Shown: positions 1,790-6,544 of the stretch, one piece after another
Numbering within the stretch: the first letter of the stretch is position 1
Layout of the letters: every line of letters starts with the position of its first letter
Notes under the pieces: model-generated
Seen by the model: the letters and a program-made list of their open reading frames with translations, nothing else
What the model was told of the DNA's origin: nothing
The model's database searches: none
Origin: Patescibacteria group bacterium
GTDB lineage: Bacteria; Patescibacteriota; Patescibacteriia; 2-01-FULL-39-33
Direction of reading: 5' to 3'
NCBI GenBank assembly: GCA_041662745.1
Contig: JBAZRV010000003.1
Coordinates: 56,034 to 120,033 of the forward strand
DNA: 64,000 nt
Position numbers and translations under genes: made by a program

Positions 1790-1924
1790 GGGAGTTAATG
1801 TTCAGTTGCTAACGGATCGGCTTTTAGTTAATAGATCGCTTATTTTTAGGCGATTTTTTTAATTTAATTTTGTCTAATTTTACGTATTTATTGATAATTA
1901 AATTAGAAAAAGTGGATAAAACAC

Positions 1925-1953
1925 TTGACAAAATATTTAAGGTGTGATATAAT
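1925..1953 (+). promoter_or_regulatory. consensus sigma70 promoter: -35 TTGACA (1925-1930), 17-nt spacer, extended -10 TGaTATAAT (1945-1953)
   Basis: exact TTGACA-N17-TATAAT with TG at -15/-14 read directly from sequence; predicted TSS about 1960, upstream of a GC-rich structured region. Confidence 0.6.
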
Positions 1954-1959
1954 AGTTTA

Positions 1960-2910
1960 TTCAAGATGATGGTTGTGGATAACTGAACAAAATTCAATTA
2001 TTGACAATATCATCTTGTGGCAGTTTAAAAGCTGTTTTAAAAGAGTTCTTCGGAGCTCTTTGTCAGGGCGGCATACGGCTTATGTCGTGTGTCGCCCTTG
2101 ACAAAGGTTTCTGAAAAGCGATGGCTAATTCTTGTTGATGGCTGTTTTTTTGAGTGGACATAGTCCGAACAGTATCGGCGAGAACGGTTGCAACGCAGAA
2201 ATCCAGGGTTCTTGGGTGGTATCGGCTGAAGGTGCCAATCCGACTTCGGGTCGGTCGCAGCTAATGCTTAAATAAAAAAATCGACCGAAGGCCGATGCCC
2301 CCAAGAATCCGACCTAAGAATCAGAAATGCACTTTAACGGCTGACTTAATTACGGTCAGCCCTCCACTTAAGCTCAGGATAAATCATGATCTTAACGGGA
2401 GCTTGAACATTACTAAGCATTCATCTGCGGCAGTTTGTCGCCGCATCGATATGATTAAGGCGTATGCTTGTCCGCCTGATCAAGTCCAAAGCCAAAAGCC
2501 GAGGATTTTGGGAGGAGATTGAGCTGAAGAGGGGGCATGGTTTGAAATTATATATTTACCAATCGCCTTAATTCACTTCTTCAAGTCTTGATTATATCGA
2601 TGCGGTAGCAATGTTTGGCCGTCAAGCAGGCGGGCAAACGCGCGCCGCAAGCACTTTCTTTGAAAGAAGAATTTCCCCACCGTCGGGCCATTATCCCGCC
2701 GGATCGGTAGACTTCCTCCTTTCTCTGGGGAGGCGTCATGTAACCGCATGCGCCTCCCCCACACGCCTCAGACAGTATGGTTCGAGGGCGCATAATCAAA
2801 TCCTCACAAGGGAAGCTTGGTTTTACGCTTACGGCTTAAGTACTGTTTGAGGCGTGTGTTTTAAAACGGCATTTCATTCTACGAGCAATCTCGTGAAGGA
2901 GGGTCTGTCT
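1960..2910 (+). ncRNA. unclassified GC-rich highly structured RNA (long 5' leader of zinc-ribbon operon or independent ncRNA)
   Basis: no credible ORF with RBS over ~950 nt; GC visibly above flanks; many perfect hairpins (UUCG-loop hairpins at 2042-2059 and 2244-2258; 18-bp helix 2760-2777/2841-2858; long-range helix 2207-2225/2292-2310); mutually exclusive hairpins around 2715-2757. Confidence 0.35.
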
Positions 2911-3093
2911 ATGGTAATTCAATGTTGCGTTTGCTCCAAGGTGCGTTCGGCCGGTACTTGGGAAGTCCGGAGCATCCCTCCCGGGGAGCAGGTTTCCCAC
3001 GGCTATTGCCCAGAATGCGCCGAAAAAGTGTTTCAGGGCATAGAGCGGGAGTTGGCCGCGCGACAAAAGAAGGAGGAGACCGTCAATGGCTAA
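2911..3093 (+). CDS. small zinc-ribbon protein (60 aa), CxxC ... YCPxCAE
   Basis: ATG at 2911 preceded by AGGAGGG (2897-2903); Cys pairs CCVC and CPEC; stop overlaps start of paralog (ATGGCTAA). Confidence 0.6.
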   Translation: MVIQCCVCSKVRSAGTWEVRSIPPGEQVSHGYCPECAEKVFQGIERELAARQKKEETVNG

Positions 3094-3286
3094 AGGTAAG
3101 TGTCCGGCTTGCTTCAAAGTTGAAGTAGCGCCGGGACAATGGAAGAATGTCGCCTTGCCGGTCGGCGAGGAAACATTTCCCCAATATTGTCCAAAGTGTG
3201 CCGAACACAACGCTTATGTTCGGGGGAGCATCCTGGCATCCAAGAGGTTGGCGGATGCGGCCCTGGCCTCGGCGTCGGGCAAATAG
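3086..3286 (+). CDS. small zinc-ribbon protein paralog (66 aa), CPAC ... YCPKCAE
   Basis: RBS GAAGGAGGAG upstream; same Cys spacing and shared YCPxCAE motif with preceding ORF; translationally coupled. Confidence 0.6.
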   Translation: MAKGKCPACFKVEVAPGQWKNVALPVGEETFPQYCPKCAEHNAYVRGSILASKRLADAALASASGK

Positions 3287-3293
3287 TTCAATG

Positions 3294-3322
3294 AAGGAGG
3301 AGGCTGCGCGCTTCCTCCTTTA
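3294..3322 (+). terminator. hairpin aaggaggagg-ctgcgcg-cttcctcctt with short T tract
   Basis: 10-bp stem (1 mismatch) immediately after zinc-ribbon operon stop; weak U-run. Confidence 0.4.
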
Positions 3323-3497
3323 AAATTAATTTTGATTTATCCACAGCCAGACTCTTGACACTATATTGTTTTTATAAAAATTTAAGATATAATTTTATAT
3401 TAAGGGATGACACTAAGCGTCAGGCATTTTCAATCGCACTTTCCTAAAAACATTTTTAGGATCACACTTAAGTGTGATTTCGAAAATTCTCGTCGCG

Positions 3498-3526
3498 TCT
3501 TCTCCAAGTCCCGCCCATGTGGCGGG
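3498..3526 (+). terminator. intrinsic terminator-like hairpin gtcccgcc-catg-tggcgggac + TTTTAATT
   Basis: 8-bp perfect GC-rich stem followed by T-run; lies in a hairpin-rich 200-nt intergenic stretch (perfect hairpin atcacact-taa-gtgtgat at 3459-3477). Confidence 0.45.
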
Positions 3527-3555
3527 ACTTTTAATTGGCTGATTTTTTTGATTAG

Positions 3556-3564
3556 TGTTATAAT
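3556..3564 (+). promoter_or_regulatory. extended -10 promoter TGtTATAAT upstream of membrane-protein gene
   Basis: TGTTATAAT 22 nt upstream of ATG at 3586. Confidence 0.4.
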
Positions 3565-3585
3565 TTAATCAAGCAATCAAATCCT

Positions 3586-3963
3586 ATGTCGCTTAAGCAA
3601 TTAATCATCATCGTTGCCATTGCCACATTATTATGCTGGGCCAGCTGGTTGCTGGTCATTTTTGAGGTGGATCCGACGACTGCCGGCTTTTACGGCTTGC
3701 TGATTTTTTATGCCAGCATGTTTTTTTCTTTGCTCGGCTTATTTTTTTTGATCAGTTTCGGTTTCAGGAAGATTTTCAACAAGCTGGAAATGGAATACAG
3801 GCTGGTGGGCATGTCTTTCCGCCAATCGTTTTTCTTTGCCCTGGCAGTCGTCGGTTTCTTTTTTTTGCAAAGCAAGGATTTGCTGACTTGGTGGAATAGC
3901 ATTATGTTGCTGGCGGCTCTGGTGATTTTGGAATTTTTCTTTTTGAGTTATCGGAAAAAGTAA
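3586..3963 (+). CDS. hypothetical small membrane protein (125 aa, 4 predicted TM)
   Basis: long ORF, hydrophobic segments. Confidence 0.55.
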   Translation: MSLKQLIIIVAIATLLCWASWLLVIFEVDPTTAGFYGLLIFYASMFFSLLGLFFLISFGFRKIFNKLEMEYRLVGMSFRQSFFFALAVVGFFFLQSKDLLTWWNSIMLLAALVILEFFFLSYRKK

Positions 3964-4019
3964 GGCAACAGAAGGCGTCCCTTGTCGGGACGTTTTTTTT
4001 ATTTGGCATTATAATGTTT

Positions 4020-4262
4020 CTTGTTATTTTTACTCTCTCATGTCATTCCTGGCTTGACCAGGAATCCAGGTTTTCCTGTCATCCTGAGGCGCACCTGCCT
4101 GCCGGTAGGCAGGGACGGGAATCCAGGTTATTTTTATCCGTCATTGCGAGCGAAGCCGTAATCGGCGAAGAGCGGCAATCTTTCAGTGAACATAAATGTG
4201 GCCTTCAATATTGCTTCGTTCCGCTACGCTACACTCGCAATGACGAAAAGCAATTTGACTAA
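4020..4262. repeat. cluster of 3 tandem MITE-like hairpin units, GTCATTCC...GGAATCCAGGTT family (third unit flanked by inverted repeats gtcattgcgagcg/cactcgcaatgac)
   Basis: units at about 4040-4072, 4078-4130, 4140-4250; each self-complementary; second copy of family at 55866-55945 shares cctgcct-N-ggcagg core and GGGAaTCCAGGTTATTTTT(a/g)TCATT. Confidence 0.6.
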
Positions 4263-5435: not shown

Positions 5436-5984
5436 ATGGGTAACCAAATTAAAAACAACAAATTAAAATATCTATTTTGGCTATCAAGTATAGCCATAAT
5501 ATTTTGGATAATTTTTGGTCTCGGCTTGCAAAGGGATTATAAGAACTGCGGTAGTGCAATCTCTAAAATTTCCTTTTTTGGAATAGTTTTGTATGAGTAC
5601 GATAATCCGTGTCCTGTTACAAATACAAAAACACCAGAATTAAGTGACTTAGATATATTTTCGATAGAAATTAATAGGCATCCAAATTTGAGAGGATTTC
5701 CATTTTCTGAAGTTGTAGATTTTTCTCGTTTTGATAAAAGTAATTTGAAAGCTATTTGGATGATTATATCATTTGTTTCATTATTGAATTTGATTTTTTA
5801 TTTTGTTTTTTTTCAAATACTATTTAAAATTTTAGATAAGGTTAGTAACAATTATAGAAAAATAGTTTTTATAATTTTGATGATTACGATTTCTCTTATA
5901 TTTTTAATTATATCATCTATAAATGCCAAATATTCTTTAAGTTATTTAACTTTCTATTCAATTTTAACAATTTTTAAATTGTAG
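5436..5984 (+). CDS. hypothetical membrane protein (182 aa), strongly AT-rich gene
   Basis: long ORF in markedly AT-rich segment inserted between pheS and pheT; N- and C-terminal TM segments. Confidence 0.5.
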   Translation: MGNQIKNNKLKYLFWLSSIAIIFWIIFGLGLQRDYKNCGSAISKISFFGIVLYEYDNPCPVTNTKTPELSDLDIFSIEINRHPNLRGFPFSEVVDFSRFDKSNLKAIWMIISFVSLLNLIFYFVFFQILFKILDKVSNNYRKIVFIILMITISLIFLIISSINAKYSLSYLTFYSILTIFKL

Positions 5985-6028
5985 GCTTTTTATAAATCTA
6001 AATATTTCAATAACCGACTGAAGTCGCT

Positions 6029-6544
6029 ATGATTAAACCCCTCAAGCAATCAACATACGAAACTTGTTTGACCTGTTGTTTATTAATGCTTGCAGGAAAA
6101 AGCAGAAAAGATGAAATTGAAATTTGGAAGCATGGCTGGAAATTCAATTATCTAATCGGCCAGATTAATTTTGTTAGCAGCAAATACAATAAAAAGGTAA
6201 CCGCTTATATTGAGAATAAGTATTATTTTAATGAACTGAAAAACCAAGGCGGTAAAAATGTCAGATTAATTAACAGCAAAATTAACTTAAAGCTGATTAA
6301 TAAGCTTTTAGAGGAGGGGAGTGTCGGGGTTTATTGTGATGCTTACTATCCTTTTGCCGCCCATTCCGGTTATGTCCATGCTCCGCACTTTATAGTATGT
6401 TTAAGCAGGGATGGGGATTTTATGGAATTAGCCGATCCCTGGGATGGCCAGATCAAAAAGTGGCCGGTCAAAGAAATCAACAAGGCGATAATCAGTTTAC
6501 GTAATCATTTAAAGTATAGCCCAGTTTTGATAACAATTAATTAA
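6029..6544 (+). CDS. putative standalone C39-like cysteine peptidase (171 aa)
   Basis: N-terminal Q-x6-C-L-T-C-C-L-L-M-L resembles C39 Q...DCGxACLxMI catalytic Cys region; C-terminal HFIVCLSRDGDFMELADPWDG matches H-F-V-V ... I-A-D-P-x-x-G His/Asp motif of C39 peptidase domains. Confidence 0.45.
   Translation: MIKPLKQSTYETCLTCCLLMLAGKSRKDEIEIWKHGWKFNYLIGQINFVSSKYNKKVTAYIENKYYFNELKNQGGKNVRLINSKINLKLINKLLEEGSVGVYCDAYYPFAAHSGYVHAPHFIVCLSRDGDFMELADPWDGQIKKWPVKEINKAIISLRNHLKYSPVLITIN

What the first reader, a model, noticed from the sequence alone, without database searches (positions are those of the whole stretch)
2715..2860. Mutually exclusive hairpins and an 18-bp helix immediately upstream of the zinc-ribbon ORF RBS (switch-like architecture)
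Segment ggggagg (2727-2733) can pair either with cctcc (2715-2719) or, as ggaggcg (2729-2735), with cgcctcc (2751-2757). The adjacent 18-bp helix 2760-2777/2841-2858 ends 38 nt before the AGGAGG of the first Zn-ribbon ORF and is followed by TGTTTTAAAA. This looks like an anti-terminator/terminator or RBS-sequestering switch at the 3' end of the long leader. Alternatively the 18-bp inverted repeats could be TIRs of a ~100-bp MITE inserted in the leader.
Basis: seen in the sequence. Interest (0 to 1): 0.5.

Follow-up and report, generated by a model that had tools for sequence, protein, structure and literature searches.

The report
Conserved 3' domain of new RNA
The flagged hairpins are real, but they are the fixed 3' domain of a previously undescribed, roughly 950-base structured RNA of Patescibacteria that is co-transcribed with small zinc-ribbon proteins, not a two-state switch or a transposon remnant.

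Summary

- **The helix.** The 18-bp helix 2760-2777/2841-2858 is the base of a ~95-nt irregular hairpin, "E". E is conserved in 11 related lineages. 95% of aligned pair cells form standard pairs, against 32-42% in slid controls, and 16 of 37 pairs carry compensatory changes. G·U outnumbers A·C 55:6. One copy occurs per locus.
- **The adjacent hairpin.** Hairpin 2727-2759 abuts E and forms with probability ~1.
- **The proposed alternative.** The CCUCC:GGAGG pairing has equilibrium probability ~0 and costs +15.7 kcal/mol. It is predicted only as a nascent-transcript intermediate.
- **The SD.** CCUCC is instead complementary to the Shine-Dalgarno sequence of the first zinc-ribbon ORF, which would close a three-way junction. 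This prediction depends on the sequence context folded.
- **The transcript.** E belongs to an RNA starting from a consensus promoter (1925-1953). The RNA folds at z = -20.7 and has three covarying modules (A, D, E). It matches no Rfam family and is more conserved than the neighbouring protein genes.
- **Gene linkage.** Module D precedes a zinc-ribbon ORF in about 15 of 22 lineages. Seven lineages carry the RNA without that ORF.
- **MITE reading.** Not supported.

Function is unknown. My best guess is a 3' end, leaky-terminator and translational-gate domain.

The parts
1925..1953 (+). Sigma-70 promoter TTGACA-17-TATAAT with a TG extension, 12 of 12 matches. The transcript should start near 1960.
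   Evidence: The motif TTGACAAAAT...TATAAT is conserved in L006, L007, L009, L010, L011, L013, L017, L105, L120, L123 and L127.
1962..2017 (+). 5' hairpin of the transcript. It contains the DnaA-box-like 9-mer at 1974-1982.
   Evidence: MFE structure. GUUGUGGAUAAGU is kept as sequence in most of the E-bearing lineages.
2020..2116 (+). Module A: a short hairpin (2020-2024/2031-2035), the CUGUUUUAAAAG motif, and a long hairpin (alifold pairs 2053-2111) with conserved GGGCGG/CGCCC.
   Evidence: Alignment A5 of 14 sequences. 14 of 30 pairs have compensatory changes. G.U:A.C = 81:9.
2115..2392 (+). Optional structured insert of about 280 nt. It is absent from the closest relatives L006 and L007 but partly shared with L010.
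   Evidence: Pairwise alignment. nhmmer aligns L010 3442-4177 across it. It includes helix 2206-2216/2300-2310.
2435..2606 (+). Module D: a multi-branched domain closed by a helix of about 22 bp (2441-2459/2587-2605), with the near-invariant GGCGUAUGCUUGUC.
   Evidence: Alignments A3 and A6. 15 of 31 pairs are compensatory. Covariance model R1 scores 145.5 bits here and detects unseen members L021, L022, L014 and L020.
2607..2706 (+). Clade-specific structured spacer between D and the E module, present in the window, L006, L007 and L105. Other relatives carry small ORFs or almost nothing here.
2707..2721 (+). Element 'a', a pyrimidine-rich anti-SD (GUAGAC UUCCUCCUU).
   Evidence: It pairs with 2896-2903 and 2907-2912 at P 0.76-1.0 in the 236-, 331- and 511-nt contexts, but only about 0.09 in the full-length fold. 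An equivalent pairing is predicted in L006, L105 and L028 in full-length context.
2727..2759 (+). Pre-E hairpin (b:c), GGGGAGGCG...CGCCUCCCC with a 5-bp apical extension. It sits flush against the base of E.
   Evidence: P about 1.0 and -26.4 kcal/mol. L105 has a G-C to A-U compensation, and L006 has a GNRA loop. Unrelated GC hairpins occupy the same position in L028, L123, L086, L010 and L009.
2760..2858 (+). Module E: a ~95-nt irregular hairpin whose basal helix of 18-19 bp is the reported inverted repeat.
   Evidence: Alignment A4 of 10 sequences. 95.4% of cells are paired against 32-42% in slid controls, 16 pairs have double changes against 1-4, and 0 of 500 shuffles reach the observed values. 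Model R2 scores 112.9 bits on + and 45.2 on -.
2859..2866 (+). Tail UUUUAAAA directly after the helix, giving a weak terminator-like U tract (4 of 8).
   Evidence: Read. The promoter/terminator scan does not list it. The tails are richer in U in L009 and in L028, L123, L086 and L120.
2881..2894 (+). Small hairpin ACGAG-CAAU-CUCGU immediately 5' of the SD.
   Evidence: Conserved in L006 and L007 but not in L105.
2896..2913 (+). Element 'd': SD AAGGAGG (2896-2902) and the start codon ATG (2911-2913) of zinc-ribbon ORF 1.
   Evidence: The SD is predicted to be paired in all contexts, with probability 0.32-1.0 per base.
2911..3093 (+). Zinc-ribbon ORF 1 (60 aa; MxxQCCVCxKxR..W...SHGYCPxC).
   Evidence: phmmer finds 474 cluster representatives at E<=1e-3. 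Invariant residues are C5, C6, C8, W17, H30, C33 and C36. The AlphaFold model has pLDDT 94.
3086..3286 (+). Zinc-ribbon ORF 2 (66 aa), whose start overlaps the stop of ORF 1.
3292..3322 (+). Canonical intrinsic terminator at the end of the transcription unit.

Best explanation
The region is the 3' module of a long structured RNA, not a switch.

Shown:
- A consensus promoter at 1925-1953 lies upstream of about 950 nt without a conserved ORF. This stretch folds far better than shuffled sequence.
- It contains three independently covarying modules: A (2020-2116), D (2435-2606) and E (2760-2858).
- Hairpin 2727-2759 and hairpin E are two constitutive hairpins that abut each other. The 18-bp inverted repeat is the base of E.

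Inferred:
- During transcription the pyrimidine stretch 'a' (2714-2721) first pairs with GGGGAGG.
- 'a' is displaced when CGCCUCCCC is made. It then becomes free to pair with the SD and AUG of zinc-ribbon ORF 1 (2896-2912), about 175 nt downstream.
- That pairing closes a three-way junction around the two hairpins and hides the ribosome-binding site.
- The base of E followed by UUUU acts as a leaky terminator and 3'-end protector.
- As a result most transcripts end as a stable non-coding RNA. The read-through fraction carries zinc-ribbon ORFs that are translationally damped until a factor opens the junction. That factor could be a protein, possibly the zinc-ribbon protein itself, or an RNase III cut in the long helix.
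For: Structure:
- z = -20.7 for 1955-2915.
- E: 95.4% of cells paired against 32-42% in slid controls, 16 compensatory pairs, 0 of 500 shuffles.
- D: 15 of 31 pairs compensatory. A: 14 of 30.
- G.U:A.C = 55:6, 79:12 and 81:9.
- The E model scores 68 bits better on the + strand.

Conservation: the RNA modules are 90-92% identical to L006 and L007. macB and pheS are 82-88% identical and the zinc-ribbon ORFs 66-80%.

Constitutive hairpins: b:c and E have P about 1 in four contexts.

Anti-SD:
- P 0.76-1.0 in contexts of 236 to 511 nt.
- An equivalent pairing is predicted in L006 (0.64), L105 (about 0.75) and L028 (0.7-1.0) in full-length folds.
- In local folds it is also predicted in L120 and partly in L123.

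Nascent a:b hairpin: predicted in all four close relatives.

End-forming role:
- In L009, E is followed directly by UUUUAUUUUUUU, with no ORF.
- U-rich tails (5-6 of 8) follow E in L028, L123, L086 and L120.

Linkage: a CxxC ORF follows E within 25-75 nt in 9 of 11 E-bearing lineages.
Against: - In the full-length fold of the window, the a:SD pairing drops to about 0.09 and the SD pairs with 2872-2878 instead.
- That shift depends on a long-range helix 2027-2042/2859-2874, which by inspection of the L006 and L007 sequences is not conserved.
- L007, L086 and L011 do not show the upstream anti-SD pairing.
- An SD is purine-rich, so it will find some pyrimidine partner by chance, and it cannot covary.
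- The U tract after E is poor in the window (4 of 8) and in L006, L007 and L105 (2 of 8).
- L010 has its own terminator right after E, so E is not sufficient or not meant for termination there.
- E's internal sequence (GGUUCG...ACGGCC, with many invariant bases) is more conserved than a terminator or gate would need. That hints at an unidentified binding partner.
- There are no expression data.
Confidence: 0.45

Rival explanations
1. A genuine two-state regulatory switch. GGGGAGG would pair either with upstream CCUCC or with downstream CGCCUCC in response to a ligand or protein, changing termination at the 18-bp helix or access to the RBS.
For: The complementarities exist. a:b (7 bp) is the predicted fold of the nascent transcript in the window, L006, L007 and L105. 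In L105 the G-to-A change in b is matched by C-to-U in both a and c.
Against: - a:b has equilibrium probability 0.0, and forcing it costs +15.7 kcal/mol.
- In the forced state c pairs with the SD, so both states hide the RBS.
- Nothing competes with the 18-bp helix (P = 1 in all contexts).
- Other clades replace b:c by unrelated hairpins without an a-like partner.
- No Rfam riboswitch matches.
Confidence: 0.08
2. E is simply a large, leaky intrinsic terminator. It defines the 3' end of the non-coding RNA and has no translational role.
For: The base helix is GC-containing and is followed directly by U's. UU is invariant at the first two tail positions. L009 has a strong U run and no downstream ORF. 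The L028 clade has 5-6 U in 8.
Against: - The window has 4 U in 8, and L006, L007 and L105 have 2 in 8.
- The consensus terminator scan does not call it. That scan requires a loop of 3-8 nt, so it could not have recognised a hairpin of this size.
- L010 adds a canonical terminator 10 nt after E.
- A 95-nt hairpin with conserved internal loops is far more than termination needs.
Confidence: 0.2
3. E, with the rest of the RNA, is a binding platform for the co-encoded zinc-ribbon proteins. This would be either an autoregulatory operator or a stable ribonucleoprotein.
For: - The RNA and the zinc-ribbon gene are linked in about 15 of 22 lineages, including distant ones where the ORF directly follows D (L018, L019, L021, L127).
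- E has many invariant unpaired bases.
- The zinc-ribbon fold is predicted with confidence.
Against: - The zinc-ribbon family (474 representatives) is much wider than the RNA and occurs without it (L125, L126 and L129).
- ORF 1 is not basic.
- There is no informative fold match.
- Seven lineages carry the RNA but no zinc-ribbon ORF in cis.
Confidence: 0.15
4. The long helices are RNase III processing sites. Cleavage would separate the stable RNA from the zinc-ribbon mRNA and might activate its translation.
For: E has 19 + 5 bp of near-continuous duplex. The D closing helix is about 22 bp and the A hairpin about 30 bp, all at or above the usual substrate length.
Against: Inference from helix length only. 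There is no cleavage-site information, and strong sequence conservation within the helices is not required for RNase III.
Confidence: 0.1
5. The 18-bp arms are terminal inverted repeats of a ~100-bp MITE inserted in the leader.
For: E is restricted to one clade. Outgroups have D followed directly by the ORF, so E did arise as an insertion at some point.
Against: - No second copy exists in the window.
- Each of 11 lineages has one copy, always at the orthologous site, in about 0.98 Mb searched.
- The arms change by compensatory substitutions, and the whole interior is paired too.
- G.U:A.C = 55:6 shows selection on the + strand RNA.
- The flanks CCCC|CACACG...CGTGTG|TTTT show no target-site duplication.
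Confidence: 0.02

Closest known systems
Large 'ornate' bacterial non-coding RNAs of unknown or recently emerging function (OLE, GOLLD, ROOL, HEARO, raiA)
   Same: Several hundred nucleotides long, with multiple covarying domains. Narrow phylogenetic range. More conserved than neighbouring genes. Found in uncultivated or metagenomic lineages.
   Different: None of their Rfam models matches at E<=10. The conserved modules here are separated by lineage-specific inserts, including small ORFs. The RNA is co-transcribed with a specific small protein family.
Dual-function RNAs (S. aureus RNAIII/hld, SgrS/SgrT, SR1/SR1P)
   Same: A highly structured RNA and one or more small ORFs lie on one transcript, and the RNA part appears to have a life of its own. 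Here seven lineages keep the RNA without the zinc-ribbon ORF.
   Different: No evidence of trans base-pairing targets. The size and module architecture are unrelated. The ORFs lie 3' of the structured part rather than inside it in the window.
RBS-sequestering 5' leaders and translational operators (ribosomal-protein leaders, thrS operator, type I toxin mRNAs such as hok and tisB)
   Same: A long-range anti-SD:SD helix is predicted to close a structured junction just upstream of the start codon. Translation would need remodelling or processing.
   Different: The partner of the SD depends on context in silico. No ligand or protein is known. The leader is 5-10 times longer than typical operators.
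Intrinsic terminators and transcription attenuators
   Same: A stable stem is followed directly by U residues, upstream of an ORF.
   Different: The hairpin is about 95 nt with conserved internal loops. The U tract is weak in the window. No alternative antiterminator pairing exists, and a canonical terminator lies at 3292-3322.
MITEs and REP-like palindromic elements
   Same: Two 18-nt inverted arms about 100 bp apart in an intergenic region.
   Different: Single copy, orthologous, with compensatory evolution and strand-specific G.U pairs.

Membership tests
Intrinsic (Rho-independent) terminator | Stable GC-containing stem ending immediately before the tail | tested here: met
   The base helix 2760-2777/2841-2858 has P about 1.
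Intrinsic (Rho-independent) terminator | U-rich tract (about 5 or more U in 8) right after the stem | tested here: not met
   The window has UUUUAAAA (4 of 8), and L006, L007 and L105 have UUGCAAAA (2 of 8). The feature is met only in L009 and the L028 clade. The scan does not list it.
Riboswitch or attenuator expression platform | Two mutually exclusive structures of comparable stability, one of which frees or forms the terminator or RBS | tested here: not met
   a:b has P = 0.0 and a ddG of +15.7 kcal/mol. The SD is paired in both states.
Riboswitch or attenuator expression platform | Match to a described aptamer or leader family | tested here: not met
   Rfam 15 at gathering and at E<=10 gives only noise.
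MITE | Multiple dispersed copies in the genome | tested here: not met
   One copy in the 64-kb window and one per related locus. The rest of the genome could not be searched.
MITE | Terminal inverted repeats flanked by a target-site duplication | tested here: not met
   The flanks CCCC / TTTT show no duplication. The arms covary as RNA pairs.
Known large ncRNA families (OLE, GOLLD, ROOL, HEARO, raiA, RNase P, tmRNA, SRP, 6S) | Covariance-model match at or near the gathering score | tested here: not met
   ARAGORN finds no tmRNA.
RBS-sequestering translational operator | SD and start codon base-paired in the predicted ensemble | tested here: met
   Paired probability is 0.89-1.0 per SD base in local contexts and 0.32-0.93 in the full-length fold. 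The pairing is seen in relatives too.
RBS-sequestering translational operator | A specific, conserved anti-SD partner | tested here: inconclusive
   An upstream partner next to the pre-E hairpin is predicted in the window (local folds), L006, L105, L028 and L120. It is not predicted in L007, L086 or L011, and it shifts in the full-length window fold.
RBS-sequestering translational operator | Regulated change of translation | not testable with these tools
   Needs toeprinting or reporter assays.
Dual-function RNA | Structured RNA with conserved secondary structure plus a translated small ORF on the same transcript | tested here: met
   Covariation in A, D and E. The zinc-ribbon ORFs have a conserved protein family. 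No terminator is called between the promoter and 3292.
Dual-function RNA | Independent trans-acting function of the RNA part | not testable with these tools
   The only indirect hint is that the RNA is kept without the ORF in L009, L010, L013, L017, L020, L083 and L112.

The most novel reading that the evidence does not exclude
The A-D-E transcript is a new class of large (0.3-1 kb), modular, ornate RNA specific to Buchananbacteria-type Patescibacteria. In this reading it works together with the small CCVC...SHGYCPxC zinc-ribbon proteins encoded on the same transcript, as a ribonucleoprotein or an autoregulatory pair. Its transcription would be tied to DnaA through the conserved DnaA-box-like sites that bracket the unit. 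Hairpin E would be the clade-specific protein-binding or processing arm of this particle.
Probability: 0.2. Interest if true: 0.8.

Novelty: new variant of a known kind. Interest (0 to 1): 0.6.

Why it matters
Patescibacteria (CPR) have tiny genomes of about 1 Mb, yet this lineage keeps up to about 950 nt of non-coding sequence. That sequence sits under a perfect consensus promoter and is conserved more tightly than housekeeping genes, which argues for an important RNA function nobody has described. Large structured bacterial RNAs without a known job are rare and have repeatedly led to new biology.

The family also gives a first genomic handle on a widespread, unannotated small zinc-ribbon protein family with at least 474 clusters. 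It further shows an unusual architecture in which conserved RNA modules tolerate insertion of whole small genes between them.

For the finding itself, the practical result is that a plausible-looking switch is better read as a fixed structural domain.

Tried and rejected
- **Rfam.** Searched at gathering score on the whole window, and at E<=10 on 1790-3600, on the simplest homolog (L009) and on 3385-3545. Only a tRNA elsewhere and hairpin or terminator noise came up.
- **ARAGORN.** No tmRNA.
- **Literature.** Three full-text searches found nothing on this RNA or on the SHGYCP motif.
- **Zinc-ribbon protein.** No Pfam, NCBIfam or PHROG family. No PDB sequence match. No significant fold match, with the best E = 1.7 to Fur/Zur Zn(Cys)4 domains.
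- **Word-indexed protein searches.** These found only the self cluster and one relative. An exact-sequence look-up of ORF 1 found nothing.
- **Replication origin at the DnaA boxes.** GC skew is positive on both sides, genes upstream are co-oriented, and box counts in the window are not enriched (20 observed against 13.8 expected). I dropped this as an origin but kept it as a note.
- **D-like motif outside Patescibacteria.** GCRYAUGCUUGU-like strings occur upstream of zinc-ribbon genes in L126 and L129, but the D covariance model does not hit them.
- **Long-range helix 2027-2042/2859-2874.** It is seen in the full-length MFE, but by inspection it is not conserved in L006 or L007, so I treat it as fortuitous.
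- **Pair counting on the a/b/c/d elements.** A formal count on the four-sequence alignment A8 was abandoned because a 1-nt register shift in L105 misaligns the pairs. I used per-sequence folding instead.

Full report
**Observation.**
- The inverted repeat 2760-2777/2841-2858 is 18 nt with one G·U.
- It has no other copy in the window, where 0.03 are expected by chance.
- It is one of only five long spaced inverted repeats in 64 kb, and a second one (2441-2459/2587-2605) lies in the same intergenic region.
- The local 216 nt fold at z = -8.85.

**Setting.**
- The region lies in an ORF-free stretch of about 1.1 kb. On one side is a MacB/FtsX permease gene (554-1789). On the other are two overlapping small zinc-ribbon ORFs (2911-3093 and 3086-3286).
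- A 12/12 sigma-70 promoter with an extended -10 sits at 1925-1953. The terminator of the upstream gene is at 1833-1856, and the next canonical terminator is at 3292-3322.
- The predicted untranslated transcript 1955-2915 folds at -400.9 kcal/mol, against -288.3 ± 5.4 for shuffles, z = -20.7.
- No Rfam family matches.

**Relatives.**
- The organism is a Patescibacteria MAG.
- Identical copies occur in four other assemblies.
- A PheS-anchored scan of GTDB species gave 79 loci. A motif scan of metagenomes gave 39.
- nhmmer and covariance-model searches found the RNA in about 22 distinct lineages, mostly labelled Candidatus Buchananbacteria or Patescibacteria. In most of the PheS-anchored loci the order is macB, RNA, a 125-aa membrane protein, then pheS.
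- Against L006 and L007 the RNA modules are 90-92% identical. macB and pheS are 82-88% identical, and the zinc-ribbon ORFs 66-80%.

**Architecture.** Three modules are conserved and covary independently.
- **Module A** (window 2020-2116): 14 of 30 pairs have compensatory changes.
- **Module D** (2435-2606): 15 of 31 pairs are compensatory. A covariance model built on 18 sequences recovered four members it had not seen, at E from 1e-9 to 1e-16.
- **Module E** (2760-2858): see the next section.
- **Strand.** G·U exceeds A·C by 55:6, 79:12 and 81:9 in the three modules, so the + strand RNA is what is selected.
- **Variable content between modules.**
  - A ~280-nt structured insert (2115-2392) is present in the window and L010 but absent from the closest relatives.
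  - Between D and E there is a structured spacer in the window clade. L028, L086, L123, L010 and L022 carry small ORFs there instead.

**The flagged helices.**
- Across 10 distinct sequences E is a single irregular hairpin of 37 pairs.
- 95.4% of cells form standard pairs, against 32-42% when partners are slid by 1-3 columns.
- 16 pairs have changes on both sides, against 1-4 in the slid controls. 0 of 500 shuffles reach the observed values.
- The 18-bp repeat is helix 1 of this hairpin. It has 19 pairs, 8 of them with double changes.
- The E model finds exactly one copy in the window (112.9 bits on +, 45.2 on -) and one per locus in 11 lineages. It finds nothing in about 70 other loci.
- Hairpin 2727-2759 (b:c) has probability about 1 in contexts from 236 nt to full length.
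- L105 carries a G-C to A-U compensation in b:c.
- Unrelated GC-rich hairpins occupy the same position, flush against the base of E, in L028, L123, L086, L010 and L009.
- Both hairpins are therefore constitutive and probably stack on each other.

**The proposed switch.**
- The a:b pairing (CCUCC 2715-2719 with GGAGG 2729-2733) has equilibrium probability 0.0.
- Enforcing it costs +15.7 kcal/mol, and then c pairs with the SD.
- a:b is nevertheless the predicted fold of the nascent RNA, before c exists, in all four close relatives. It is therefore a plausible folding intermediate rather than a regulated state.
- In contexts of 236 to 511 nt, 'a' (2714-2721) pairs with the SD (2896-2903) at P 0.76-1.0. 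In the 236-nt fold 2707-2712 also pairs with the start-codon region (2907-2912) at about 0.97.
- In the full-length fold the a:SD pairing falls to about 0.09 and the SD pairs with 2872-2878. The shift depends on a long-range helix that by inspection is not conserved in L006 or L007.
- Full-length folds of L006, L105 and L028 keep an SD partner just 5' of the pre-E hairpin, at P 0.64-1.0. L007 does not.
- I regard SD occlusion as likely and its exact partner as unsettled.

**Terminator reading.**
- The tail after E begins with an invariant UU. It is U-poor in the window clade, U-rich in the L028 clade, and a full U run in L009, where no ORF follows.
- L010 has a separate canonical terminator 10 nt after E.
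- E may therefore help form or protect a 3' end, but it is more than a terminator.

**Link to the zinc-ribbon gene.**
- ORF 1 belongs to a family of at least 474 clusters of proteins, mostly about 60 aa long, with seven invariant residues: C5, C6, C8, W17, H30, C33 and C36.
- The family has no annotation and no informative structural neighbour.
- In distant members of the RNA family the ORF follows D directly (L018, L019, L021, L127) or after a short insert (L014, L022). E is absent from all of them.
- E is thus a clade-specific addition between D and the ORF.
- Seven lineages keep the RNA with no zinc-ribbon ORF (L009, L010, L013, L017, L020, L083, L112).
- The protein family also occurs without the RNA (L125, L126, L129).

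**Verdict.**
- The switch and MITE interpretations are not supported.
- What is there is the 3' domain of an undescribed, modular, strongly conserved structured RNA co-transcribed with small zinc-ribbon proteins.
- Its function is unknown. My working model is a 3'-end or leaky-terminator domain that also clamps the downstream ribosome-binding site.

Noticed in passing
window 1911-1919, 1974-1982 (- strand) and 3337-3345 (+ strand); also 1961-1987 / 3332-3358: Perfect DnaA-box 9-mers (TTATCCACA) sit about 15 nt downstream of the predicted transcription start and just after the operon terminator, with a one-mismatch box upstream of the -35. They lie inside a 27-nt, 78% complementary inverted repeat that brackets the whole transcription unit. 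The boxes are conserved in the E-bearing clade (L006, L007, L010, L011, L028; L013 has the 3' box only). They are absent from outgroups L127 and L017. GC skew and box counts do not indicate a replication origin.
   Followed up: partly
window ~3350-3540: A second conserved small non-coding unit lies right after the DnaA box. It has a promoter-like CTCTTGACA...TATAAT and then a ~140-nt RNA. That RNA folds as a ~100-nt rod plus the terminator 3505-3535 (z = -6.76). Homologous sequence is visible in L009, L013 and L112. Rfam gives only terminator-driven sub-threshold hits.
   Followed up: partly
window 4040-4255: A cluster of palindromic repeat units lies in the pheS upstream region: GTCATTCCTGG...CCAGGAATC and GTCATTGCGAGCGAAGC...GCTACACTCGCAATGAC. 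Together they read as a spurious 82-aa ORF. The intergenic region is about 170 nt longer than in L006. This is the kind of small palindromic insert the MITE hypothesis had in mind, but it lies elsewhere.
   Followed up: partly
window 2115-2392; L010 ~3660-3990: An optional ~280-nt structured domain sits between modules A and D. It is missing from the two closest relatives but shared with a more distant one, which implies repeated gain or loss of a whole RNA domain.
   Followed up: partly
L028 5320-5530, L086 ~2344-2423, L123 (rc) between D and E, L010 4194-5049, L022 after 5205, L127 2371-2550, L112 after D: Small ORFs are inserted between conserved RNA modules in relatives. Some are related to each other, for example the ...LCxxFGL peptides in L086 and L123, and the 60-aa EVDPxQ ORF in L010 and L022. 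L010 and L112 carry short hydrophobic peptides. The RNA locus behaves as a landing pad for small genes.
   Followed up: no
L125, L127/L128: Outside the window's clade the zinc-ribbon gene sits next to metal-transport genes: CorA upstream in L125 and FeoA downstream in L127/L128. This may hint at a metal-related role.
   Followed up: no
window 5436-6544: A very AT-rich block (16-33% GC) carrying two ORFs (5436-5984 and 6029-6544) interrupts the pheS-pheT pair. Its composition differs sharply from its surroundings and may mark a foreign insertion.
   Followed up: no
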